This document shows, in pieces, positions 1 to 8,479 of a stretch of DNA of 30,526 bases. The notes beneath the pieces are model-generated. The model was given only the letters and a program-made list of their open reading frames with translations. It was not told the origin of the DNA and made no database searches. Each line of letters opens with the position of its first letter. Within the stretch, counting starts at the first letter, position 1. The translations under genes were made by a program, and so were the position numbers. The DNA comes from a virus (taxonomy: Duplodnaviria > Heunggongvirae > Uroviricota > Caudoviricetes), in IMG/VR virus record IMGVR_UViG_3300032046_000009; one strand, written 5' to 3'.

Positions 1-1146
1 ATGTATATCTTGATGGTAGCGCGTATCTTCTGGTTGGAAATGTTGTAACGGAACTTTGCCTTTTGATGTGCCAACTTTCTCGAAACAATCAAGAAACTGC
101 TTACATAATTTTTCATCATCAAGCAAATCTAAAAGCCGCTTACGCCCAGCTACAACCACTTCATGGTAGAATTTTGGGTCTGTTCTAAGCCGCTCAATAA
201 GTTCAATCTGTTTAGCAAAATCATTTACCTCTGTATAAAGTTCTGGAAACATATCATGAACAGAATTACTTGAACCAACGCAGGGTACACAACTTATTGC
301 ACATTCCATACCAAATCTTGACCATCCGCCGTAACCATCGCTATTATCCAGACCCACATCACAATTTCTCCAAAGCAAATCTGTATATGCTACATATTCC
401 ATTCGTACATATACTTCGCTATTAACTGGAAGTTTTTCTCGCGCACGAAAAGCATTAACAAATTCTTGTTTGATACTACCATTAAATACTGTTACCGCAT
501 AATTTTTAGGTCTTATAACATTTTCAAGAACAGAACGAACATTATGGCTTCTAGCGGAATGATACATTATTGCCAGATTTTTTCCTTTATGATTTTCATT
601 ATACCTGTTTACACCATATCTAAAAAGATGAGGCAATAATATTTTGAATATTGGTTTTGTAGTGTATTTTTCAAACAACGGATTATCTGTCACCTTAATA
701 ATTCCATCTGGTATTTCAAGTATTTTTGTATCTTTGAAGAACTGTTCTGGTCCACCATGATTGTCTGGATTTGGCATTAACTTTAAATCCCACCAACTTC
801 CGTTAGGATTAAATAACCATAACCATTCATCATCCCATTGAGCGAGCATTTTAGCTTCGGGTTTCATAAACGGTTTTGCAAAAATCGGTAAACTCCACCA
901 ACTAACACCAGTTGGTTCATATCTTGATGACCGTCTTGTTGCATAAGCGTAAATATAATCAGCTTCTTTCAAAGGGTTCCAATATGGGTCATTGACAAAA
1001 TCATTATAAACTTTTCTATGAACTGGCGAAGCGTTTATTGATGACACTACAATGTCGAGTTTTGACGCATATTTATTCAAAGCAACAAACCATTGGAAAT
1101 AATCGCGGCAATCAAACCATGCCACAATACAAAGTTTTTTTGTCAT
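1..1146 (-). CDS. Putative GT-B fold glycosyltransferase, 3'-truncated by the window edge (not in the ORF track)
   Basis: Manual translation: ATG at 1146 overlaps the upstream TGA (ATGA). Open for 382 codons to base 1 (MTKKLCIVAWFDCRDYFQW...). The C-terminal half has GWSRFGMECAISCVPCVGS...DPKFYHEVVVAGRKRL, resembling the E-x-A-x-x-G/C-x-P donor-binding region of GT4/CgeB-like enzymes. Confidence 0.65.
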   Translation of the reverse strand, partial: MTKKLCIVAWFDCRDYFQWFVALNKYASKLDIVVSSINASPVHRKVYNDFVNDPYWNPLKEADYIYAYATRRSSRYEPTGVSWWSLPIFAKPFMKPEAKMLAQWDDEWLWLFNPNGSWWDLKLMPNPDNHGGPEQFFKDTKILEIPDGIIKVTDNPLFEKYTTKPIFKILLPHLFRYGVNRYNENHKGKNLAIMYHSARSHNVRSVLENVIRPKNYAVTVFNGSIKQEFVNAFRAREKLPVNSEVYVRMEYVAYTDLLWRNCDVGLDNSDGYGGWSRFGMECAISCVPCVGSSNSVHDMFPELYTEVNDFAKQIELIERLRTDPKFYHEVVVAGRKRLLDLLDDEKLCKQFLDCFEKVGTSKGKVPLQHFQPEDTRYHQDIH

Positions 1147-2006
1147 ATTTTCCCCTCTTTCCCTAGTACCTTTATTGACCACTTTCGCATTATATCGAAT
1201 TTCTTCTTGCATTTGGCAACTTCTTTGGCTATTTCTGGGTCTTCCATCTCAGCTATCCTAAGTTCATTTGACCGTTCGACCCACCTGAATAGCGCGCTGT
1301 TTACACTCTGGTTCAACAATACAATGTTAGGCATCAAACAATGTCCACCGATGACTGACGGGTGATATAAAGGTCTGTCGAGTCTGTGAATATGTGTATC
1401 GATGAAGATGTCAAGAATATCAGAGAAATCAACACCAAATTCTTTGGAAATTCTATGCATCTCCTGAAACATTGCAATCATTGTAGCGGCGTAACTTGTC
1501 TCATACAACTTTGCCAATTCCGTGTTAGTTGAATTACGCATAAGTTCGCATTTAAACCCCGCCTTAATAAGATGATTAAATGCCTCTTTGCCGCCTTCTG
1601 GGGTCGCGCCACCGACAAACTTTGTGTAGGTCTTAATGTCTTCAAGCATCTGGGAGTGTACCCCGCGCACAGGCGAGTGCGCTACGTACGGACATTCGCG
1701 GTGAATTTCTTCATAAATCATTCTTGTTGTTAGAGGCGGAACTGTACTATGAATTATCACAAGTTTCGGCTCGAATTCGCTTACTAAGTCGCAGACTATG
1801 TTTATGAATTTCTTTGCGTCTGAGCACGAAATACAAATATGAAGGGAGTAGATAGTATTAGGAATTTCATCCAAGTCATGAATAGTTTTGTTTTGGTCTC
1901 TGTCATATCCGAAGACTTTCCATATCCTCTGCATTTTAAGCAGTTCAAATATTGGACGACCAACTTCGCCTAATCCAACTACAAGAATGTTATCCAATGT
2001 AATCAC
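1143..2006 (-). CDS. NDP-sugar 6-dehydrogenase (UDP-glucose/GDP-mannose/UDP-ManNAc dehydrogenase family), short form
   Basis: Rossmann GLGEVG, HSTVPP, ELAKLYETSY (catalytic Lys helix) and IGGHCL (catalytic Cys). At 287 aa it lacks the usual C-terminal UDP-binding domain. The true start may be the TTG three codons downstream, since the annotated GTG lies inside a GGTGA SD-like motif. Confidence 0.85.
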   Translation of the reverse strand: MITLDNILVVGLGEVGRPIFELLKMQRIWKVFGYDRDQNKTIHDLDEIPNTIYSLHICISCSDAKKFINIVCDLVSEFEPKLVIIHSTVPPLTTRMIYEEIHRECPYVAHSPVRGVHSQMLEDIKTYTKFVGGATPEGGKEAFNHLIKAGFKCELMRNSTNTELAKLYETSYAATMIAMFQEMHRISKEFGVDFSDILDIFIDTHIHRLDRPLYHPSVIGGHCLMPNIVLLNQSVNSALFRWVERSNELRIAEMEDPEIAKEVAKCKKKFDIMRKWSIKVLGKEGKI

Positions 2007-3087
2007 CTATGATTTTTGCGATTTGTTCTGAGGCTGTTCCATTTCCATAAAGCGGCTTCACGTTTTTCGGGAAACTCGGTAGATTATTCAGAATCTCAGA
2101 GATTGTCTCATATTTTGTTCCAGTCAGAATTGTCGCTTTACAGTCAGAAAGTTCTTGCCATTCTGGGGTACTGGTCTTCAATGCGATGCAAAGTTTATGA
2201 AGATAGAACGCTTCTCTTTGAATGCCACCTGAGTCTGTGATTACTGCATTAGAGAATCGTTCTAAGTTTATCATGTCATAATAGGAAACGGGGTCGATTA
2301 TCTGAATATTCTTTCCTATATATTTTTCAAGTTTGTTTTCTCTGAGCATTTTTCTTGAGCGCGGATGAATTGGATAAATAACTGGAATAGGACTACTACT
2401 TAATGCTTCAAGTATTCCTTTAAATGTCGCTGGATTATCAACATTCCAATCTCTATGAATAGTGGCAACATAGTAAGGCGATGAAATACCCAAATTATCC
2501 AAAGTCTTGACCTTCTCTATTTTAGAGAAATGCATCGTGAGAACGTCCAACAGTATGTCGCCAACATTGTAAGCCTTTCCAAATTGCCTTTCGGTAATCA
2601 AATTTGTCCAATGGCGTAAACTTGCTGTAAACAAAAGACTTGAAACTGAGTCGGCAACTACCCTGTTTATTTCTTCCATTATATTTCTATCATATGCACG
2701 ACAACCAGCCTCTATATGAGCAACTGGAATCTTCAGTTTAACTGCCGCAAGTGCCGCGCCCATAGTTGTGTTTGTATCTCCAACAACGACAACCATTGCG
2801 GGTTGCATATTCATCAGAATCTTCTCTGTACCTTCGATTATTTTTGCTGTTTGTGCGCCATGTGTGTCTGAGCCAACTTCGAGATTTACGACATGTGGAA
2901 ATTTCAACTGACTTAAAAAAATTTGGGACATGTTCAAGTCATAATGTTGTCCTGTATCAACTATAATACTTTCGTACTTTAGTTGATTAAGTACAGCAAT
3001 GACCTTCATATACTGTGGTCTAGTGCCCATCACGAATGCCAGAGGAATCTTTGCAAACTCATTCTTCAACTGTGAATGCCCCTTCAT
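1990..3087 (-). CDS. wecB: UDP-N-acetylglucosamine 2-epimerase (non-hydrolysing)
   Basis: Family motifs GTRPQ, TGQHYD, VGDT, HIEAGCR, ATIHR and TDSGGIQREA; typical length. Confidence 0.95.
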   Translation of the reverse strand: MKGHSQLKNEFAKIPLAFVMGTRPQYMKVIAVLNQLKYESIIVDTGQHYDLNMSQIFLSQLKFPHVVNLEVGSDTHGAQTAKIIEGTEKILMNMQPAMVVVVGDTNTTMGAALAAVKLKIPVAHIEAGCRAYDRNIMEEINRVVADSVSSLLFTASLRHWTNLITERQFGKAYNVGDILLDVLTMHFSKIEKVKTLDNLGISSPYYVATIHRDWNVDNPATFKGILEALSSSPIPVIYPIHPRSRKMLRENKLEKYIGKNIQIIDPVSYYDMINLERFSNAVITDSGGIQREAFYLHKLCIALKTSTPEWQELSDCKATILTGTKYETISEILNNLPSFPKNVKPLYGNGTASEQIAKIIGDYIG

Positions 3088-4156
3088 CTAATAGTTCTAG
3101 GAAGAAGTATAGCGAAGAGTAGGTTAATTCATACCAGAAACTTGTCTTCCACTTCTTATATGTTTCAAATCGTTCCATGTTAAAATCTTTGAGTGCTGGG
3201 TCATGTTCATGTGCAAATTTTCTGTAACCGTGCTGGAAATATGTTTCCCAGTTAGGACCGAATCCTCTTTTTGTACCAACCATCTTACCATAATCCCTGT
3301 TAATTGCTGGCAATATGCCGAACTGTTCTATTTCTTTTCGAATCCGCAATTTTGTTATTGGTCCCTCAACTTTGTGGCATATTGGAAGACTACGCATCCA
3401 TGCTACTATGTCTGGGTGTTTCAAATATGGAATTTTCAAATCAACTCTACCGTGACAATGATAGACATTACCCCAAATGTAATCTCTTTGTAAGTTAAGT
3501 GTTTTGGTTTCTTCTGCTTCGAATTTTACAACATCATGTTGAACTGCCCAGAGATTTGTTTCTCCACCTGTTATTGCATCAAGACCTAGACCTATGAACG
3601 CTTTGTTTGTGCCGTCCTCTTCGAGAACCTTTGCAATGAAAAGCACTTGTGGACACCATGAAGGTGCTCGCATCAGTTGACAAGATTCCTTTATCAGTTT
3701 TGGAACTTCTTCATATGGCATAAATCTCTGAATCAATTTTACCCCTGTGGCATCGCAGACGGCTTTAGCGTATTCTGTTTCGTCTTTGTCTTCACCCCAA
3801 GTCATATTGTAGCCTCTAACGTGGTCTGGTCCTAAAATGTCAGCGGTGAATTTCAAGAGTAGTGCTGAATCTATTCCGCCTGAGAGGAATATTCCTACTC
3901 TATCAACTTCATGGTTTGGATTCCACTCATTAAGACTTCTTAAAACGGCTAAACGAATCATATCCATGTATTTTCCAGCATAGTCGCTGGTAGAATTATA
4001 TGGTATTGGTTTGTTGATTGTGTGAGCATATGTATTGTATTCCGTGATTGCTGGTGGAATAATTCCCATTGGTGGATTTAGAAGTCGCATAATATTTTTC
4101 AGATAGTAGTTTAGTTTTGCTATGTCTATATCTTTTCTTGTTAAGGTTTTTTTCAT
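3059..4156 (-). CDS. Asparagine synthase C-terminal-like (PP-loop) ATP-dependent amide ligase, no glutaminase domain
   Basis: PP-loop LSGGIDS, GLGLDAITGG (equivalent to GEGADELFGG) and DLKIPYL (equivalent to ExRxPFL). Only about 90 aa precede the PP-loop and there is no N-terminal Cys of an Ntn glutaminase. Confidence 0.8.
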   Translation of the reverse strand: MKKTLTRKDIDIAKLNYYLKNIMRLLNPPMGIIPPAITEYNTYAHTINKPIPYNSTSDYAGKYMDMIRLAVLRSLNEWNPNHEVDRVGIFLSGGIDSALLLKFTADILGPDHVRGYNMTWGEDKDETEYAKAVCDATGVKLIQRFMPYEEVPKLIKESCQLMRAPSWCPQVLFIAKVLEEDGTNKAFIGLGLDAITGGETNLWAVQHDVVKFEAEETKTLNLQRDYIWGNVYHCHGRVDLKIPYLKHPDIVAWMRSLPICHKVEGPITKLRIRKEIEQFGILPAINRDYGKMVGTKRGFGPNWETYFQHGYRKFAHEHDPALKDFNMERFETYKKWKTSFWYELTYSSLYFFLELLDEGAFTVEE

Positions 4157-4186
4157 TTTTTATCACCTTATACCTATAATATTCAT

Positions 4187-6127
4187 CTACGGATGAGGTC
4201 CTTGACATGATTCTTTTTTGTGTACCTCACCTTGTTTCTTCCCATCATCTGGAAGTTTAATAGGACATGGTGTTTCACTTTGTTTCTTCTCATCTTTTAG
4301 AAGTTTAATACGATTTAGTTCTTCACTTTGTTTCTTCTCATCTTTTAGAAGATTAGCGTGACATTCAAGTTCTTCAAAAAGATTTCTTCGGTAGATTTTT
4401 CCATCAAGTGAAATATGTTGAAGATAAATGTCGCTGGCACAATAGACCTTTAATCCCATTTCCCAGACTTTTTCAATCAAAGGCATAATGATTTCAACGT
4501 TGTTTATGCCAGTTCTTCCACCTTTTGTGTAAATTTCTGGCTTCATCATCCAAACGTGACCTGTCATTCCAACTTCAAAAACCACTTGTCCGTGCATTTG
4601 TTTGTCAAGTATCCAGTTATCATCAACGTAAGCGACAAATGGTTTACTATCAATTCTTTTCAGAGGACCAGCAATACCATAACCATCAATTGGAGAATCA
4701 GGTCTTGAACACATATGAAGTGGGAATCGTCTGTGATGAACAGCACCAACCCAACCCGCGTCAGGATAGTCTCTGAAAACTTCGAGATACCGCCTGATTG
4801 TTTGCATTGGAACAACCACGTCTGCGAAAAGAAACATAATATACTTGTGTTCTGGTTTCAGTTGGTCAAAGAAATAATGATAAACTTTACATAATCGTTT
4901 CCCTCTTTCGATTTTATCTGTCATAGTTTGTACTTTATTTTTTCCAGCCCTATTATTAATATAGTCGGATACAGTAGATTTTCCGAATTTCTTCAATCCG
5001 TAATCTTGCCTGACAAGTGTAAACGAATGATAGTTGTATTTATTTTTGATTTTCTTCTCGTATTTCTGAAGCATTCCCCATGTATTGTCAACGCTGTCAT
5101 TTTCGACCCAGACTAAATCAATCATTTCTTTTGGATAGTCAATATCGAGTAAACTTTGGATATACAAGTCTATCGATTGGTCTTCATTGTTAAAGGGGGT
5201 ACAGACTAAAATTGGAACATATGTCAAACACTTTATTCCGCTCAAAGCACCACCTACTATTTGTTTTTTTTCTTCTATCGGTTCGAATATGAGAATCGGT
5301 CCTTTCTTTCCGACAAACAAATTCTTGTGGAATCTTGCATCATGAGGAATATAAACTCTCAAGTCAGTAAATTGAGGAATACAATCTTCTGCCAAATCTA
5401 CCGCAAAAGCAAAATCATCCGAGTTGAGGTCTGGCATAATGTAGGATTTGCAACCGTGCTTTTCAAAGATGTCTCTTCGTATAGCGCATAAAGAGTGTCC
5501 TTGAAAGAAACATTGGAATATCCTCTGGTTTTTCTCTCTAAAAGAGGACGTTAAGAATGCATAGTTTTCAGGCATAGCACCTAGATAGATACATTTACTT
5601 CTTACGCCAAATTTATCCAAATACGGAAATGGTTCAATAATGACATTGATTGTTGGATGTTCTATTTGTTTTTCGCAATAACTACACATTAACCTTCCTG
5701 TCTTGTAGGTATTGCACATATTTGAACAACCTGAAATTGCTGGAAAATCATATGTACAAATGTCATCAAGAAGAAGATTAAGTGCGTCTTCTGAAACATA
5801 CACATCATCGGATATGAGAATTATGTGTGTGTACTCTGGGTGAAGTGCGACCCATTCTATGGCAATTTTGTGAGCCTCTACATCATTGTAGTATTTTATC
5901 CAAAGTTTGTCAACTTGTTTTAGGTTGTCGAAGCATTTCTGAACTTCTGGAAGGTCACGGGGAGAACGAATAATCATAATTGGTTTTATCTCAGAGAGTT
6001 CCAGTTTTCTAGGGCGCAAAAACTTTGAAATATCAGTCTCATTCTGGATGAAGTCCAATTTATGAAGTAAACGCTCCCATTCTCTATCGAATTGAGGGGT
6101 TTCAGATTTTTGTTGGGTTTCTTCCAT
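4187..6127 (-). CDS. Tandem GT-A (family 2-like) glycosyltransferase
   Basis: N-terminal domain with YTHIILISDD (DxD-like). Second domain with TPFNNE...LLDIDYPKEMIDLVWVENDSVDNT and FLFADVV, reminiscent of GT2/Anp1-Mnn9-like enzymes. Confidence 0.8.
   Translation of the reverse strand: MEETQQKSETPQFDREWERLLHKLDFIQNETDISKFLRPRKLELSEIKPIMIIRSPRDLPEVQKCFDNLKQVDKLWIKYYNDVEAHKIAIEWVALHPEYTHIILISDDVYVSEDALNLLLDDICTYDFPAISGCSNMCNTYKTGRLMCSYCEKQIEHPTINVIIEPFPYLDKFGVRSKCIYLGAMPENYAFLTSSFREKNQRIFQCFFQGHSLCAIRRDIFEKHGCKSYIMPDLNSDDFAFAVDLAEDCIPQFTDLRVYIPHDARFHKNLFVGKKGPILIFEPIEEKKQIVGGALSGIKCLTYVPILVCTPFNNEDQSIDLYIQSLLDIDYPKEMIDLVWVENDSVDNTWGMLQKYEKKIKNKYNYHSFTLVRQDYGLKKFGKSTVSDYINNRAGKNKVQTMTDKIERGKRLCKVYHYFFDQLKPEHKYIMFLFADVVVPMQTIRRYLEVFRDYPDAGWVGAVHHRRFPLHMCSRPDSPIDGYGIAGPLKRIDSKPFVAYVDDNWILDKQMHGQVVFEVGMTGHVWMMKPEIYTKGGRTGINNVEIIMPLIEKVWEMGLKVYCASDIYLQHISLDGKIYRRNLFEELECHANLLKDEKKQSEELNRIKLLKDEKKQSETPCPIKLPDDGKKQGEVHKKESCQGPHP
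4226..4351. repeat. Three 48-bp tandem units at the 3' end of the tandem glycosyltransferase
   Basis: Exact 30-mer TTCACTTTGTTTCTTCTCATCTTTTAGAAG at 4274-4303 and 4322-4351, with a degenerate copy at about 4226-4255. Encodes LLKDEKKQSE x2 plus LPDDGKKQGE. Confidence 0.9.
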
Positions 6128-7093
6128 TTACATACTCTCCAATTTTCGTCTTATTTTCGACTTAATTGAAACTACATGTCTTGAGAGAATTCGTATTCCA
6201 TAATGGCGTAAGAAATCTCTCAAGTCATCGCAAATTTCGCTATCTTCTCCTGACCAACTATTATGAATTGCGTCTATTGCCATAAACTTGTCTCCCTGTT
6301 CTATCACAATCATATATTCTGAGCATCTTATCTCGAACGGTTCTTTGTAGAATCCTTTGATTGTGATTAACTCAGGACTACTTTCCACAGAAAAATCGTC
6401 AAGTTTGTCTTTAAGCAATTCGGCGTATTGCATCATAATTTGCCAAATCATATCTTCTTGTTCTTTCTGAGTAAGTTTCTTCGGGTGATTTGGTGGACCC
6501 ATAATTACTTTTGCTGGAACACCGCCAACAATCGTGTCGTCTGGAACGTCTTTCGTAACTACTGCACCAGCACCTACATTTGCATTATCGCCTATTGTCA
6601 CGTTTGGCAAAATTATTGCGCGGTAGCCAATTATTGAGCCTGAACCTATCTTTACTGGACCTATCTTCATTCCGTAACCTTTAACTACTGATTGCCAACA
6701 ACCATGTGTTAAAATCGCGGAACTTGGACTCAATCCAACGTGGTCGCCAATCGTCACAGGCATAAACACGTTTATGAAACTATCATGCATAACACAACAT
6801 TTACCTATTTTGATTCTGGCTGTTGGTCTTTCTGAGCCGCCACCACCGATTATAAGTGGAAGAGGCTGGTCATCTGAGTAGAAGAAATCTCCTATCTCGA
6901 TTGAACGCGCCTTGAACTGTGCATTTGGGCGAATTTTACAAAACTTTCCTATGACAAGTTTCTCATATGCAATGATTGTAGTACCATTACCAATCTCTGT
7001 ACCTTCGCCAATCGTTATGTCATCAGAAACAATCCTGACATCATTGCCTATCTTAACAGTTTCATGAATGTTTGACTTAGAGCACGTTATCAT
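6128..7093 (-). CDS. Hexapeptide-repeat (left-handed beta-helix) O/N-acyltransferase with C-terminal extension
   Basis: [LIV]G hexapeptide repeats (VKIGSGSIIGYRAIILPNVTIGDNANVGAGAVVTKDV) and the GGVPAKVI motif. About 110 further C-terminal residues are unassigned. Confidence 0.9.
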   Translation of the reverse strand: MITCSKSNIHETVKIGNDVRIVSDDITIGEGTEIGNGTTIIAYEKLVIGKFCKIRPNAQFKARSIEIGDFFYSDDQPLPLIIGGGGSERPTARIKIGKCCVMHDSFINVFMPVTIGDHVGLSPSSAILTHGCWQSVVKGYGMKIGPVKIGSGSIIGYRAIILPNVTIGDNANVGAGAVVTKDVPDDTIVGGVPAKVIMGPPNHPKKLTQKEQEDMIWQIMMQYAELLKDKLDDFSVESSPELITIKGFYKEPFEIRCSEYMIVIEQGDKFMAIDAIHNSWSGEDSEICDDLRDFLRHYGIRILSRHVVSIKSKIRRKLESM

Positions 7094-7824
7094 AGATAAT
7101 ATCCACCGTTCACGGCAATTACTTGTCCTGTTATATAACTAGCATTGTTCGAACTTATAAATGTTATGGTTGAAACAACTTCTTCTACCGTACCGAAACG
7201 TTGCATCGGAATCTGTGTTCTGATTTTTTCATGAATTTCTTCAGGTATTCTTAGACCCATTCCAATATCAATATAGCCAAGTGCAACACAATTTACTGTT
7301 ATACCAAAAAGCGCAACTTCTCTGGCTATTGCCTTTGTGAATCCTATTAATCCAGCTTTTGAAGCCGCATAATTGCTTGTGCCAAATGCACCTGTTTGTC
7401 CGACAACTGATGAAATGTTTATGATTCTCCCAAACCTTTTTTCGCGCATATATGGAATAACATATTTCGTACACAGGAATGCACTTGTAAGATTTGTGTC
7501 CACAACTGAGTCCCAAGCCTCTTTAGGCATTTTCCAAATGACTGAATCCTTAAAGATTCCAACATTATTTATGAGAATATCTATCTGCCCAAACCACTTA
7601 ATAACTTGATTAATCATTTGGGTAACTTGGGCTTCGTCTGTGACATCAGCCTTGATTACTTCTACATGAATCTTTGTTGCGGCATAAATCTCATTTACTG
7701 CTTTCTGCGCTTCTAAATCGTTCGAATGATAGTTAAGAATCACAGTTGCTTGCTGTCTTGCGAACGCCATAGCAGTTGCTTTTCCTATACCCTGAGTTCC
7801 ACCCGTTATTAGAACTACTGTCAA
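7090..7824 (-). CDS. Classical SDR, FabG/PhaB-like 3-ketoacyl reductase
   Basis: TGGTQGIG, DILINNVG, NISS, catalytic YAASK and C-terminal YITGQVIAVNGG. Confidence 0.92.
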   Translation of the reverse strand: MTVVLITGGTQGIGKATAMAFARQQATVILNYHSNDLEAQKAVNEIYAATKIHVEVIKADVTDEAQVTQMINQVIKWFGQIDILINNVGIFKDSVIWKMPKEAWDSVVDTNLTSAFLCTKYVIPYMREKRFGRIINISSVVGQTGAFGTSNYAASKAGLIGFTKAIAREVALFGITVNCVALGYIDIGMGLRIPEEIHEKIRTQIPMQRFGTVEEVVSTITFISSNNASYITGQVIAVNGGYYL

Positions 7825-8438
7825 TTCATTCTACCCCATACAAGTTCAAAGGCTTCTGCATAATCTGTTTTTGCTTGAACCCCACGCATTCTATTATGAG
7901 ACTCATATTTTACTCTACTTGTAGCATAAGGTCTAGCTTTCTTCTGTGCAACATATAGGTCTAATGCATCCAACTTTCTTTTAACATCCTCTTCTGTAAG
8001 AATTATGAAATAGTTTGGTTTGAAATCTGGTGTTGAACTTCGCAAAACTTCGTAGGCTAGAATCGTTGAAGTATCTCTAAAAATTGTAACACAACATTCC
8101 GCAATTGTTACGTGGTCCTGATGAAAATCATGAACAGTTGGACAAAGCACCAAATCGGGCATTATTTTTTCTCTGATAACCCAGAGTTGATTTCTTATAT
8201 CTTGCTTGTGTTCCTCTAGTCTATCGCGGGCATATTGAAACGAAATTATTTCTGATATTCCAAGTGCTTTACATACGGCTTCGTGGTCCTGAATGTGACC
8301 TTTGTTTTTCGGGTCTTCCATACATGGTGCAAAATAAACTTCTGTAACCATATGACCCTCTTGAACAAGCCTTACAATTGCGCCGCCAGCCGCAGATTCA
8401 CCATCATCTGGATGAGCGTCTATTACAAGCACTTTCAT
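7821..8438 (-). CDS. PIG-L/LmbE family N-deacetylase
   Basis: Metal-binding AHPDD and HQDH motifs; C-terminal AEAF. Confidence 0.92.
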   Translation of the reverse strand: MKVLVIDAHPDDGESAAGGAIVRLVQEGHMVTEVYFAPCMEDPKNKGHIQDHEAVCKALGISEIISFQYARDRLEEHKQDIRNQLWVIREKIMPDLVLCPTVHDFHQDHVTIAECCVTIFRDTSTILAYEVLRSSTPDFKPNYFIILTEEDVKRKLDALDLYVAQKKARPYATSRVKYESHNRMRGVQAKTDYAEAFELVWGRMN

Positions 8439-8471
8439 TATACCACATCATAAAGAATATAGGTGAGTAAG

Positions 8472-8479
8472 TATTTAAA
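8472..8479 (-). promoter_or_regulatory. Archaeal TATA box of the glycan operon
   Basis: TTTAAATA on the minus strand, 33 nt upstream of the ATG at 8438. Confidence 0.65.

What the first reader, a model, noticed from the sequence alone, without database searches (positions are those of the whole stretch)
1..8479. Virus-borne, self-contained pathway for an acylated/amidated amino-uronic-acid glycan
Seen: one TATA box drives at least 8 translationally coupled genes: deacetylase, FabG/PhaB-like reductase, LbH acyltransferase, tandem GT-A, PP-loop amide ligase, UDP-GlcNAc 2-epimerase, NDP-sugar dehydrogenase and GT-B. Known: WecB plus a WecC-type dehydrogenase make UDP-ManNAcA. AsnB-like enzymes convert uronic acids to uronamides (e.g. 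Bordetella wbm loci). PhaB-like SDRs make 3-hydroxybutyryl-CoA, and N-(3-hydroxybutyryl) amino sugars occur in O-antigens. Inference: the element builds ManNAcA, removes an N-acetyl, re-acylates the amine with a 3-hydroxyacyl group and amidates C6, then transfers it with three GT domains of its own. Archaeal viruses commonly carry GTs, but I do not know of a tailed archaeal virus with a full precursor plus tailoring route. It could glycosylate virions or remodel the host S-layer glycan (receptor masking, superinfection exclusion).
Basis: partly seen in the sequence, partly recalled or inferred. Interest (0 to 1): 0.85.

Follow-up and report, generated by a model that had tools for sequence, protein, structure and literature searches.

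The report
Sugar-tailoring operon of archaeal tailed virus
A large uncultivated virus of sediment archaea carries a conserved ten-gene operon of soluble enzymes that most likely builds and attaches an unusual acylated amino sugar, although the exact sugar and its target are still unknown.

Summary
The operon is real. It starts at an archaeal TATA box (8472-8479, minus strand) and runs through ten tightly packed genes, ending about 0.9 kb beyond the window start.

The element is very probably a tailed virus. An HK97-type major capsid gene lies on the same 137-kb contig, and capsid homologues also lie on two contigs that, by matching length, carry relatives of the operon.

Eight core genes recur behind MCM-LonB in four lineages (31-68% identity):
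- PIG-L deacetylase
- FabG-like reductase
- long hexapeptide acyltransferase
- large glycosyltransferase
- stand-alone AsnB-type PP-loop ligase
- WecB epimerase
- short WecC-like dehydrogenase
- GT-B-like protein

New support for "deacetylate, then re-acylate": the reductase-acyltransferase pair recurs in cellular archaeal glycan loci, with PIG-L, with a MaoC hydratase, or with a DegT aminotransferase.

Weaker points:
- The dehydrogenase lacks the UDP-binding domain and two catalytic residues, so uronic-acid formation is unproven.
- "Tandem GT-A" is shown for one domain only.
- The pathway is not self-contained: it has no carrier transferase, flippase or oligosaccharyltransferase.

The acceptor is unknown (virion proteins, host envelope glycan or DNA). 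I rate this a new variant of virus-encoded glycosylation. Earlier scan notes covered neighbouring parts of this genome, not this operon.

The parts
8472..8479 (-). Archaeal TATA box (TTTAAATA) of the operon, 33 nt upstream of the first ATG
   Evidence: The same TTTA[TA]ATA box with an A/C-rich 5' flank precedes eight other genes or gene groups in the window. On the coding strand it recurs only after the tenth gene.
7821..8438 (-). PIG-L/LmbE-family de-N-acetylase (205 aa)
   Evidence: Pfam PF02585, E 5e-15, 56.6 bits against a cut-off of 28.2. The AHPDDGE and HQDH metal and catalytic motifs are kept in all four lineages.
7090..7824 (-). Classical SDR, FabG/PhaB-like 3-oxoacyl reductase (244 aa)
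   Evidence: adh_short_C2 E 3e-64. NF009466 scores 247.6 against 222 and NF009464 scores 269.3 against 269; the acetoacetyl-CoA reductase model scores 258 bits, below its cut-off. TGxxxGIG, NNxG and S...YxxxK are kept. It is 55-60% identical to the SDRs that sit beside the homologous LbH in cellular archaea.
6128..7093 (-). Long left-handed beta-helix acyltransferase (321 aa) with a conserved C-terminal domain of about 115 aa and unknown function
   Evidence: Hexapep E 9e-16. PDB sequence hits are sugar and xenobiotic O- and N-acetyltransferases. It directly follows the SDR in all four viral lineages and in three cellular loci.
4187..6127 (-). Two-domain glycosyltransferase (646 aa). The C-terminal domain is GT-A (Anp1/GT2-like). 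The N-terminal domain has an SDD motif and a Cys cluster, and its fold is not established.
   Evidence: the N-domain tests were negative or inconclusive. All 45 differences between the window and the 99.66%-identical contig L001 lie at 4711-5756.
3059..4156 (-). Stand-alone AsnB-type PP-loop adenylating enzyme (365 aa) with no glutaminase domain
   Evidence: Asn_synthase E 2.8e-11. A profile matches the synthetase domain of human ASNS (218-462) and CarA. The SGG(I/F)DS PP-loop is kept in six of seven aligned sequences and reads GGFDS in the seventh (L010). Only 12 homologues were found, all on metagenomic contigs; the three whose loci were fetched lie in related operons. There is no hit to the WbuX/PseA-type amidotransferase model.
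1990..3087 (-). Non-hydrolysing UDP-GlcNAc 2-epimerase (WecB, 365 aa)
   Evidence: PF02350 E 1.8e-81. TIGR00236 equivalog scores 230.2 bits against a cut-off of 210.15.
1143..2006 (-). Short WecC/UGDH-like dehydrogenase (287 aa): NAD-binding and central domains only
   Evidence: AF2 pLDDT is 96.9. The best structural matches are UDP-ManNAc dehydrogenases over their residues of about 2-300. It belongs to a family of proteins of about 250 aa with G-x-G-x-x-G, K166 and C223 kept, but T170 and N227 in place of the catalytic Asn and Asp.
1..1146 (-). GT-B (GT4-like) glycosyltransferase candidate (392 aa). Its last 11 codons lie outside the window; the full gene is L001:11942-13120.
   Evidence: Profile hit to PglA E 3e-4. 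hhalign to archaeal GT4 proteins gives E 1.2e-4 over the EAM..G.PVI-type motif. Language-model neighbours are viral GT1-like clusters. Orthologues at 31-36% identity sit between LonB and PIG-L in the three relatives.

Best explanation
This is a vertically inherited glycan-tailoring operon of a tailed archaeal virus of about 150 kb. All of its enzymes are soluble and act in the infected cell's cytoplasm on host-made precursors.

Proposed steps:
1. WecB converts UDP-GlcNAc to UDP-ManNAc. The family assignment is shown by sequence; the activity is inferred.
2. The adjacent short WecC-derived dehydrogenase probably oxidises that sugar. This is inferred and doubtful, because it cannot bind UDP in the usual way and may act with WecB or on an already transferred sugar.
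3. The stand-alone AsnB-type enzyme adenylates a carboxylate and forms an amide with ammonia or an amine (inferred).
4. The PIG-L enzyme removes an N-acetyl group, most likely from a glycoside.
5. The FabG/PhaB-like reductase makes a 3-hydroxyacyl thioester, for example from acetoacetyl-CoA, which archaea make for the mevalonate route to their isoprenoid lipids.
6. The long hexapeptide acyltransferase puts that acyl group on the freed amine (inferred; supported by conserved gene neighbourhoods).
7. The virus's own glycosyltransferases then attach the sugars: the large GT, the GT-B-like protein, and a small GT2 with a ParB-like partner.

My best guess for the acceptor is virus structural proteins, decorated before release. 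Host lipid-linked or S-layer glycan is the next most likely.
For: Viral nature:
- A 316-aa HK97-type capsid candidate lies on the same 137-kb contig. It matches PHROG major-head families at E about 1e-4 and capsid clusters at 0.98.
- It has 137 homologues, many carrying PF25209 or named 'N4-gp56 family major capsid protein' by JGI. Some lie on contigs of 112,809 and 69,348 bp, the lengths of the contigs that carry relatives of the operon (compare).
- The window also holds MCM, a primase-like gene, RadA, three HNH nucleases and many TATA boxes.

Conserved module:
- The eight core genes recur behind MCM-LonB in four lineages at 31-68% identity, with the GT-B-like gene the least conserved.

Catalytic motifs:
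- They are intact in PIG-L, the SDR, the PP-loop enzyme and WecB.

Reductase-acyltransferase pair:
- The two genes are adjacent in all four viral lineages and in three cellular archaeal glycan loci.
- In those loci the pair sits with PIG-L and WecB (L017), with a MocA oxidoreductase and a MaoC enoyl-CoA hydratase (L016, a Thermoplasmata MAG), or with a DegT aminotransferase (L018). The SDRs are 55-60% identical to the viral one.

Dehydrogenase:
- It is nearest in sequence and structure to archaeal UDP-ManNAc dehydrogenases and always directly follows WecB.

Soluble enzymes:
- No enzyme has a clear predicted membrane-spanning segment; the only windows above the threshold (SDR 1.71, large GT 1.70) are borderline.

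Known chemistry:
- Glycans of the predicted type exist in methanogens: ManNAcA amidated with threonine, and diaminoglucuronic acid N-acylated with glyceric acid and amidated at C6 (PMC11407970).
Against: - The dehydrogenase lacks the whole UDP-sugar-binding domain. Across its family it has Thr and Asn where classical enzymes have the catalytic Asn and Asp, so uronic-acid formation is not assured.
- The AsnB-like enzyme has no characterised close relative.
- O- versus N-acylation by the hexapeptide enzyme cannot be told from sequence.
- The SDR falls just below the FabG and PhaB equivalog cut-offs.
- Nothing in the sequence identifies the acceptor.
- No terminase was examined, and the portal match is weak.
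Confidence: 0.6

Rival explanations
1. The chemistry is the same, but the target is the host envelope. The modified UDP-sugar and the peripheral glycosyltransferases feed into the host's dolichol-linked N-glycan or S-layer pathway. This changes the cell surface during infection, for receptor masking, superinfection exclusion, or a match between virion-associated host glycan and host.
For: - The closest cellular counterparts of the reductase-acyltransferase pair, WecB and the short dehydrogenase lie in archaeal cell-surface glycan loci that include AglH-type GT4 initiating transferases.
- The best PDB match of the GT-B-like protein is PglA, which works on a lipid-linked sugar.
- Methanogen S-layer glycans carry this class of sugar (PMC11407970).
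Against: - The virus shows no flippase, oligosaccharyltransferase or carrier-lipid transferase in the 57 kb inspected, and no membrane segment in any enzyme.
- Four or more viral glycosyltransferase genes are more than is needed to supply one altered donor.
Confidence: 0.3
2. The sugars are attached to viral DNA, as a hypermodified, glycosylated base. The small ParB/Srx-like protein would help a glycosyltransferase reach double-stranded DNA, as an anti-restriction or anti-CRISPR device.
For: - A 93-aa ParB_N protein and a 189-aa GT2 are the last two genes of the same operon.
- ParB-like proteins activate phage DNA-modifying dioxygenases on dsDNA (PMC13229309).
- Phages encode their own UDP-sugar synthesis plus several glycosyltransferases to glycosylate DNA (PMC13326640).
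- The window also has a MazZ-like dNTP diphosphohydrolase and a weak nucleoside deoxyribosyltransferase-like gene.
- One language-model neighbour cluster of the 392-aa protein is a DNA alpha-glucosyltransferase family (rank 49).
Against: - No thymidylate-synthase-like hydroxylase or 5-methylpyrimidine dioxygenase was seen in the 57 kb inspected or surfaced in my word search of earlier notes on this genome.
- Without such an enzyme there is no hydroxyl on a base to glycosylate.
- The nearest relatives of the tailoring enzymes are cell-surface glycan genes.
Confidence: 0.08
3. The genes do not make one product. The reductase and acyltransferase, or the PP-loop enzyme, act on non-sugar substrates such as small metabolites, cofactors or protein side chains, and only WecB and the glycosyltransferases concern sugars.
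For: - FabG-like SDRs and hexapeptide acyltransferases are very broad families, and none of the equivalog cut-offs is reached.
- The PP-loop enzyme has no characterised relative.
- Relatives add an ATP-grasp ligase, a DSP-type phosphatase or an amidohydrolase.
Against: - The same eight genes stay together in one operon in four lineages that have diverged to 31-68% identity.
- The reductase-acyltransferase pair is embedded in glycan loci in three cellular archaea.
Confidence: 0.1
4. The contig is not a virus. It would be a plasmid, or a chromosomal island of an archaeon that happens to carry phage-like genes.
For: - No terminase or tail genes were identified by me.
- The portal match is weak.
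- The contigs are absent from the IMG/VR copy and from GenBank phages.
Against: - A capsid gene lies on the same contig and its family is widespread.
- No ribosomal or core metabolic genes occur in the 57 kb inspected.
- The longest contigs carrying these genes are about 112-152 kb.
- In the tree the known viral LbH sequences fall in two strongly supported clades, and the three sequences known to be cellular fall in the other half; most other rows are of unknown origin.
Confidence: 0.05

Closest known systems
[quoted passage not shown]
   Same: The product class matches the operon's enzyme set: an amino (mannos)uronic acid with a non-acetyl N-acyl group and a C6 amide, made in archaea from UDP-GlcNAc via WecB and WecC.
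   Different: Those are host S-layer and archaellin glycans assembled on dolichol phosphate. This operon is viral, lacks all membrane steps, and its product has not been seen.
wecB-wecC (UDP-GlcNAc 2-epimerase plus UDP-ManNAc 6-dehydrogenase) gene pair of bacteria and archaea
   Same: The gene order is the same and WecB is a true family member. The dehydrogenase is nearest to archaeal WecC in sequence and fold.
   Different: The viral enzyme, like its family of proteins of about 250 aa, lacks the C-terminal UDP-binding domain and has Thr/Asn in place of the catalytic Asn/Asp. It fails the membership test.
N-(3-hydroxyacyl) amino-sugar formation: the LpxC/LpxD logic of lipid A, the AntD N-acyltransferase of anthrose synthesis (my own knowledge), and the 3-hydroxybutanoyltransferase of the E. 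coli O103 / Salmonella O55 Fuc3N derivative (reference 47 cited in PMC3726653)
   Same: A free sugar amine is acylated by a hexapeptide-repeat transferase with a 3-hydroxyacyl thioester. Here a dedicated 3-oxoacyl reductase is co-inherited with the transferase.
   Different: The deacetylase is PIG-L type, not LpxC. The transferase has an extra conserved C-terminal domain. Its donor and acceptor are untested.
AsnB-type amidotransferases that convert uronic acids to uronamides in O-antigen loci (e.g. WbpS and the Bordetella wbm enzymes; my own knowledge)
   Same: It has an Asn_synthase PP-loop domain and sits in a glycan locus next to a UGDH-family gene.
   Different: There is no N-terminal glutaminase domain, so the nitrogen donor would be free ammonia or an amine or amino acid. 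It is only distantly related (E about 1e-7 to ASNS and CarA).
Autonomous glycosylation by large DNA viruses (chloroviruses, mimiviruses; PMC4691112), and phage UDP-arabinose plus glycosyltransferase clusters for DNA glycosylation (PMC13326640)
   Same: The virus encodes both nucleotide-sugar tailoring enzymes and several soluble glycosyltransferases, which act in the cytoplasm.
   Different: Those hosts are eukaryotes or bacteria. For archaeal viruses, the papers I read report only single glycosyltransferases or scattered glycan genes (PMC10384203, PMC13465236, bioRxiv 10.1101/2025.08.23.671958).

Membership tests
Non-hydrolysing UDP-GlcNAc 2-epimerase (WecB, TIGR00236) | Full-length match above the curated equivalog cut-off | tested here: met
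   230.2 bits against a cut-off of 210.15, model positions 3-362 of 366. Pfam Epimerase_2 E 1.8e-81.
UDP-sugar 6-dehydrogenase (UGDH/WecC) | N-terminal NAD-binding Rossmann domain and central helical domain with the catalytic Cys and Lys | tested here: met
   GxGxxG, K166 and C223 (in GGHC) are invariant in 72 family members. The fold matches 4R16 and Cap5O with TM 0.70-0.74.
UDP-sugar 6-dehydrogenase (UGDH/WecC) | C-terminal UDP-sugar-binding domain (PF03720) | tested here: not met
   The protein ends at 287 aa. Matches cover only residues of about 2-300 of enzymes that are 418-438 aa long. No separate gene supplies the domain.
UDP-sugar 6-dehydrogenase (UGDH/WecC) | Catalytic Asn (E-N motif after the Lys) and Asp (GGxCxxKD) | tested here: not met
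   T170 and N227 stand at the aligned positions (89% and 91% of 133 family members).
Asparagine synthetase B-type amidotransferase | PP-loop SGGxDS ATP-pyrophosphatase motif in an Asn_synthase domain | tested here: met
   The LSGG(I/F)DS motif is kept in six of seven aligned sequences and reads GGFDS in the seventh (L010). PF00733 E 2.8e-11. Profile hits to ASNS and CarA.
Asparagine synthetase B-type amidotransferase | N-terminal class II (Ntn) glutaminase domain | tested here: not met
   Matches start at ASNS residue 218. The 365-aa protein has only about 80 residues before the PP-loop and no GATase hit.
PIG-L/LmbE de-N-acetylase | Pfam match above cut-off, plus the AHPDD and HxDH metal and catalytic motifs | tested here: met
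   56.6 bits against 28.2. The motifs are conserved in four lineages.
FabG / PhaB 3-oxoacyl reductase | Classical SDR motifs and a score above the family cut-offs | tested here: inconclusive
   The motifs are present. The subfamily models NF009466 and NF009464 are passed, but the equivalogs TIGR01830 (278 against 297.75) and TIGR01829 (258 against 302.1) are not.
GT-A glycosyltransferase (GT2/Anp1-like), two copies in tandem | Each half recognisable as a GT-A domain | tested here: inconclusive
   The C-terminal half is met (Anp1 41.6 bits against 28.8; PDB hits 6P61 and 5TZE). The N-terminal half gave hhalign probability 0.5%, no PDB or Pfam hit, and AF2 pLDDT 37. The only hints are a beta-alpha alternation and an SDD motif.
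GT-B glycosyltransferase (GT4-like) | Recognisable C-terminal Rossmann domain with the E..G.PV-type donor motif | tested here: inconclusive
   PglA E 3e-4 over 80 residues. hhalign to five archaeal GT4 proteins gives 55.7% probability and E 1.2e-4. There is no Pfam hit and no model was made.
Tailed virus (Caudoviricetes-type, HK97 capsid) | Major capsid protein of the HK97 lineage on the same molecule | tested here: met
   L014:8881-9831 lies on contig k141_946335. PHROG major-head families match at E 9e-5 and 6e-4. There are 137 homologues carrying PF25209 or the name 'N4-gp56 family MCP'. Language-model score 0.98. The fold itself was not modelled.
Tailed virus (Caudoviricetes-type, HK97 capsid) | Terminase large subunit and portal | not tested
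   The only portal evidence is a weak Portal_Mu match of the 861-aa protein (E 0.007). I did not search for a terminase. About 80 kb of the contig was not seen.

The most novel reading that the evidence does not exclude
The operon decorates the virus's DNA rather than a protein or lipid. A glycosyltransferase, helped by the co-transcribed ParB/Srx-like protein, would attach an N-acyl amino sugar (perhaps a uronamide) to a modified base. This would give an archaeal virus a new kind of hypermodified, glycosylated genome.
Probability: 0.08. Interest if true: 0.9.

Novelty: new variant of a known kind. Interest (0 to 1): 0.58.

Why it matters
According to the papers I could read, archaeal viruses carry at most single glycosyltransferases or scattered glycan genes. 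A conserved ten-gene operon that tailors a nucleotide sugar and transfers it would extend "autonomous" viral glycosylation to archaeal tailed viruses. That capacity is so far known from giant eukaryotic viruses and some phages.

The operon also points to two uncharacterised enzyme sets that are widespread in archaeal cell-surface glycan loci:
- the FabG-like reductase plus long hexapeptide acyltransferase cassette;
- the family of short WecC-like dehydrogenases of about 250 aa.

The viral operon offers compact, soluble, co-evolved versions of these enzymes for biochemical study. Such study could explain how methanogen-type N-acylated, amidated amino-uronic acids are made.

Tried and rejected
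- No whole genome is held for the window, and the contig is not held for whole-record searches. About 80 kb of the 137-kb contig was therefore not inspected.
- The IMG/VR copy gave no relative of WecB or of the PP-loop family.
- GenBank phages gave no DNA match, and no protein match for the capsid or the PP-loop enzyme.
- The AF2 model of the 646-aa glycosyltransferase, built from a four-sequence alignment, was unusable (pLDDT 37), so no fold search was run on it.
- The N-terminal domain of that protein gave nothing significant in hhalign against its own GT-A domain, in a PDB profile search, or in a lenient Pfam scan.
- I considered that the PP-loop enzyme is a WbuX/PseA/AglZ-type acetamidino-forming amidotransferase. 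I rejected this: it has no hit to that NCBIfam model and its nearest relatives are AsnB and CarA.
- I considered that the 78-aa ORF between PIG-L and the SDR in relative L008 is an acyl carrier protein. I rejected this: it is a CxxC...CxxC zinc-ribbon protein.
- I tested whether the 455/457-aa neighbours of the cellular cassettes match the viral GT-B-like protein. They do not.
- The sigma-70 promoter and intrinsic-terminator scans were no better than shuffled sequence, as expected for an archaeal element.
- No RNA holder was listed among public runs. The DNA holders are labelled sediment metagenomes.
- Literature searches for the Methanococcus threonine-adding enzyme (AglU/MMP1084) found nothing in the held library.

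Full report
**What is in the sequence**

All long ORFs of the window lie on the minus strand. After the stop of a LonB-type protease gene (8482) comes a 43-nt spacer with TTTAAATA at 8472-8479, 33 nt before the first ATG. The same TTTA[TA]ATA box, with an A/C-rich 5' flank, precedes eight other genes or gene groups in the window. This is the element's ordinary archaeal-type promoter.

The operon genes, with their Pfam/NCBIfam assignments, are:

| Coordinates | Size | Assignment |
|---|---|---|
| 7821-8438 | 205 aa | PIG-L de-N-acetylase |
| 7090-7824 | 244 aa | FabG/PhaB-like SDR |
| 6128-7093 | 321 aa | hexapeptide (LbH) acyltransferase |
| 4187-6127 | 646 aa | Anp1/GT2-type glycosyltransferase |
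| 3059-4156 | 365 aa | Asn_synthase PP-loop protein |
| 1990-3087 | 365 aa | WecB, above the equivalog cut-off |
| 1143-2006 | 287 aa | UGDH-family protein |
| 1-1146 | 392 aa | protein without a Pfam hit |

The junctions are 4-nt overlaps, abutting codons, 17- and 29-nt overlaps, and one 30-nt gap with a GGTGA ribosome-binding site.

A 137-kb ENA contig, 99.66% identical to the window (L001), shows how the unit ends. The 392-aa gene stops 33 nt beyond the window. It is followed, without a new TATA box, by a 93-aa ParB_N protein and a 189-aa GT2. The next TATA box comes only after that. The transcription unit is therefore ten genes and about 9.3 kb.

**Is it a virus?**

The window also encodes MCM, a PriS-like primase, RadA, three HNH nucleases, a MazZ-like dNTP diphosphohydrolase and a 2287-aa DUF2341 fibre-like protein.

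About 32 kb upstream, on the same contig, lies a 316-aa protein (L014:8881-9831). The evidence that it is a capsid protein is:
- It matches two PHROG major-head families (E 9e-5 and 6e-4).
- It sits among capsid clusters in the language-model search (0.98).
- It has 137 homologues, many carrying PF25209 or named 'N4-gp56 family major capsid protein' by JGI.

Two of those homologues lie on contigs of 112,809 and 69,348 bp. These are the lengths of the contigs that carry diverged copies of the operon (compare). The identical capsid protein occurs on contigs of up to 152 kb.

I did not identify a terminase, and the portal match is weak. I put the viral reading at about 0.9. The group is absent from GenBank phages and from the IMG/VR copy. 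The public DNA runs that hold the stretch are labelled sediment metagenomes.

**Conservation**

The PP-loop protein has only 12 homologues in 5.8 billion proteins. The three whose loci I fetched lie in related elements with the same MCM-LonB-glycan layout.

Eight genes recur in all four lineages at 31-68% identity: the GT-B-like protein, PIG-L, the SDR, the long LbH, the large GT, the PP-loop enzyme, WecB and the short dehydrogenase. The GT-B-like protein sits between LonB and PIG-L in the relatives.

Variable additions are:
- a small LbH directly after the dehydrogenase (three relatives);
- an ATP-grasp ligase plus a DSP-type phosphatase (L006);
- an amidohydrolase plus a second small LbH (L010);
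- the ParB-GT2 pair (this virus).

In every lineage the SDR is immediately followed by the long LbH, and WecB by the short dehydrogenase.

**The deacetylate and re-acylate step**

The long LbH has close homologues (49-53% identity) in cellular archaea. Three loci were fetched:
- A Thermoplasmata MAG has MocA oxidoreductase - SDR - LbH - MaoC enoyl-CoA hydratase (L016).
- A second archaeal contig has WecB and then PIG-L - SDR - LbH (L017).
- A third has SDR - LbH beside a DegT aminotransferase and 4,6-dehydratase-like SDRs (L018).

The adjacent SDRs are 55-60% identical to the viral one. The reductase-acyltransferase pair is thus a co-inherited cassette. It sits wherever a free sugar amine is made, either by a deacetylase or by an aminotransferase. 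In one locus it sits next to an acyl-CoA hydratase. This fits a reductase that makes a 3-hydroxyacyl thioester and a transferase that N-acylates an amino sugar.

Archaea make acetoacetyl-CoA for the mevalonate pathway (my own knowledge), so the precursor is at hand.

A maximum-likelihood tree of 95 homologues places all known viral sequences in two strongly supported clades. The three known cellular sequences fall in the other half. The gene is therefore not a recent capture. The catalytic motifs of PIG-L (AHPDD, HxDH) and of the SDR are intact.

The donor, the acceptor, and N- versus O-acylation remain untested. PIG-L enzymes characteristically act on GlcNAc glycosides rather than UDP-sugars (my own knowledge), so tailoring may follow transfer.

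**The uronic-acid and amide steps**

WecB is secure. The "dehydrogenase" is not a standard one. It matches UDP-ManNAc dehydrogenases best:
- PDB profile E 1e-16;
- a confident AF2 model (pLDDT 96.9), with TM 0.74 to 4R16 and 0.70 to Cap5O;
- the top seven Swiss-Prot structural matches are archaeal WecC enzymes.

However, the matches cover only residues of about 2-300 of those enzymes. The UDP-sugar-binding domain is absent, and no other gene supplies it.

The protein belongs to a large family of proteins of about 250 aa (289 cluster representatives at E <= 1e-30). In that family the Rossmann motif, the catalytic Lys and the GGHC cysteine are nearly invariant. The catalytic Asn and Asp are replaced by Thr and Asn.

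Members of this family occur in archaeal glycan loci. One is fused to a small LbH, and one carries an intein beside the cysteine.

The protein is therefore a functional, selected enzyme of unknown reaction. Oxidation of ManNAc at C6 is the simplest guess, but it is unproven.

The PP-loop enzyme keeps the SGGxDS motif and aligns with the synthetase domain of ASNS and CarA. It has no glutaminase domain, so it would use ammonia or an amine.

Methanogen N-glycans contain exactly such sugars: ManNAcA amidated with threonine, and diaminoglucuronic acid N-acylated with glyceric acid and amidated at C6 (PMC11407970).

**Glycosyltransferases and acceptor**

- The C-terminal half of the 646-aa protein is a GT-A.
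- The N-terminal half has an SDD motif, a four-Cys cluster and a beta-alpha pattern, but no significant match.
- The 392-aa protein is probably a GT4-like GT-B.
- The 189-aa GT2 in the operon and a 311-aa GT2 about 3.4 kb beyond the operon's end add two more glycosyltransferase genes.

No enzyme has a clear membrane segment. The 57 kb inspected contains no carrier-lipid transferase, flippase or oligosaccharyltransferase. The pathway is therefore cytoplasmic and not self-contained.

I rank the acceptors as follows: virion proteins about 0.45, host lipid-linked or S-layer glycan about 0.3, DNA about 0.08. The DNA reading is kept alive by the ParB-like partner (PMC13229309) and by phage precedents (PMC13326640). 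It lacks any base-hydroxylating enzyme so far.

**Strain variation**

Between the window and L001, all 45 differences in 13,087 bases fall in 4711-5756, inside the large glycosyltransferase gene at residues 124-473, and 36 of the 38 affected residues lie at 124-328. About 3.6 would be expected there by chance. The other compared genes are identical. This looks like a recombination tract in a specificity-determining part of the enzyme.

**Verdict**

This is a real, conserved viral glycan-tailoring operon. The scheme is overstated on "self-contained", on the uronic-acid step and on the tandem GT-A.

I rate it a new variant of virus-encoded glycosylation, here in archaeal tailed viruses.

Earlier scan notes described neighbouring parts of this genome (promoter cassettes, the ParB-GT pair). 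None of the notes I could see dealt with this operon; reports that overlap mine are withheld.

Noticed in passing
window 4711-5756 (inside the 646-aa glycosyltransferase gene): All 45 differences between the window and the otherwise identical 13-kb stretch of contig L001 cluster here, at residues 124-473 and mostly 124-328. There are 22 synonymous and 16 non-synonymous codon changes. This looks like a recombination or diversification tract in the putative acceptor-binding part of the enzyme.
   Followed up: partly
window 1143-2006; relatives P0133-P0282; loci L019 and L020: The short dehydrogenase belongs to a large uncharacterised family of WecC-like proteins of about 250 aa without the UDP-binding domain. 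The family keeps the Lys and Cys but has Thr/Asn in place of Asn/Asp. Members lie in archaeal glycan loci (Altiarchaeales and others). One is fused to a small LbH acyltransferase (P0223), and one carries a LAGLIDADG intein next to the catalytic Cys (P0226).
   Followed up: partly
window 6128-6480 (C-terminal part of the long LbH, residues about 205-321): A conserved extra domain of about 115 aa follows the beta-helix. It carries a near-invariant DDLRD(F/Y)LR..GIRI.S motif (Phe in three lineages, Tyr in the fourth) and has no family match. Its role is unknown.
   Followed up: no
L016:8252-11614, L017:8658-11059, L018:9246-11197: The FabG-like SDR plus long LbH cassette is conserved in cellular archaeal glycan loci, with MocA and MaoC, with PIG-L, or with DegT. 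It is a candidate general N-(hydroxyacyl)ation cassette for amino sugars in archaea.
   Followed up: partly
L006:6442-7899 and L010:7272-8587: Related viruses insert other tailoring genes into the same operon. One has a PylC-like ATP-grasp ligase plus a DSP-type phosphatase. Another has an Amidohydro_2 enzyme plus a second small LbH. The viral glycan therefore seems to differ between lineages.
   Followed up: no
L001:13125-13966 (just beyond the window start): A 93-aa ParB_N-only protein and a 189-aa GT2 overlap by 10 nt and are the last genes of the operon. A second ParB_N mini-protein lies upstream of RadA (L014:17667-17921).
   Followed up: partly
window 5680-5735 (residues about 132-151 of the 646-aa protein): An invariant Cys cluster (SGC.N.C...C..C) in the N-terminal domain looks like a small metal-binding insertion. 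Weak RING and PyrI_C-like Pfam hints were seen only at E > 0.1.
   Followed up: no
L014:8881-9831 (same contig, about 32 kb upstream of the operon): A major capsid protein candidate of the N4-gp56/Phage_capsid_4 type. It has 137 homologues on contigs of up to 152 kb, which defines a sizeable group of uncultivated viruses.
   Followed up: partly
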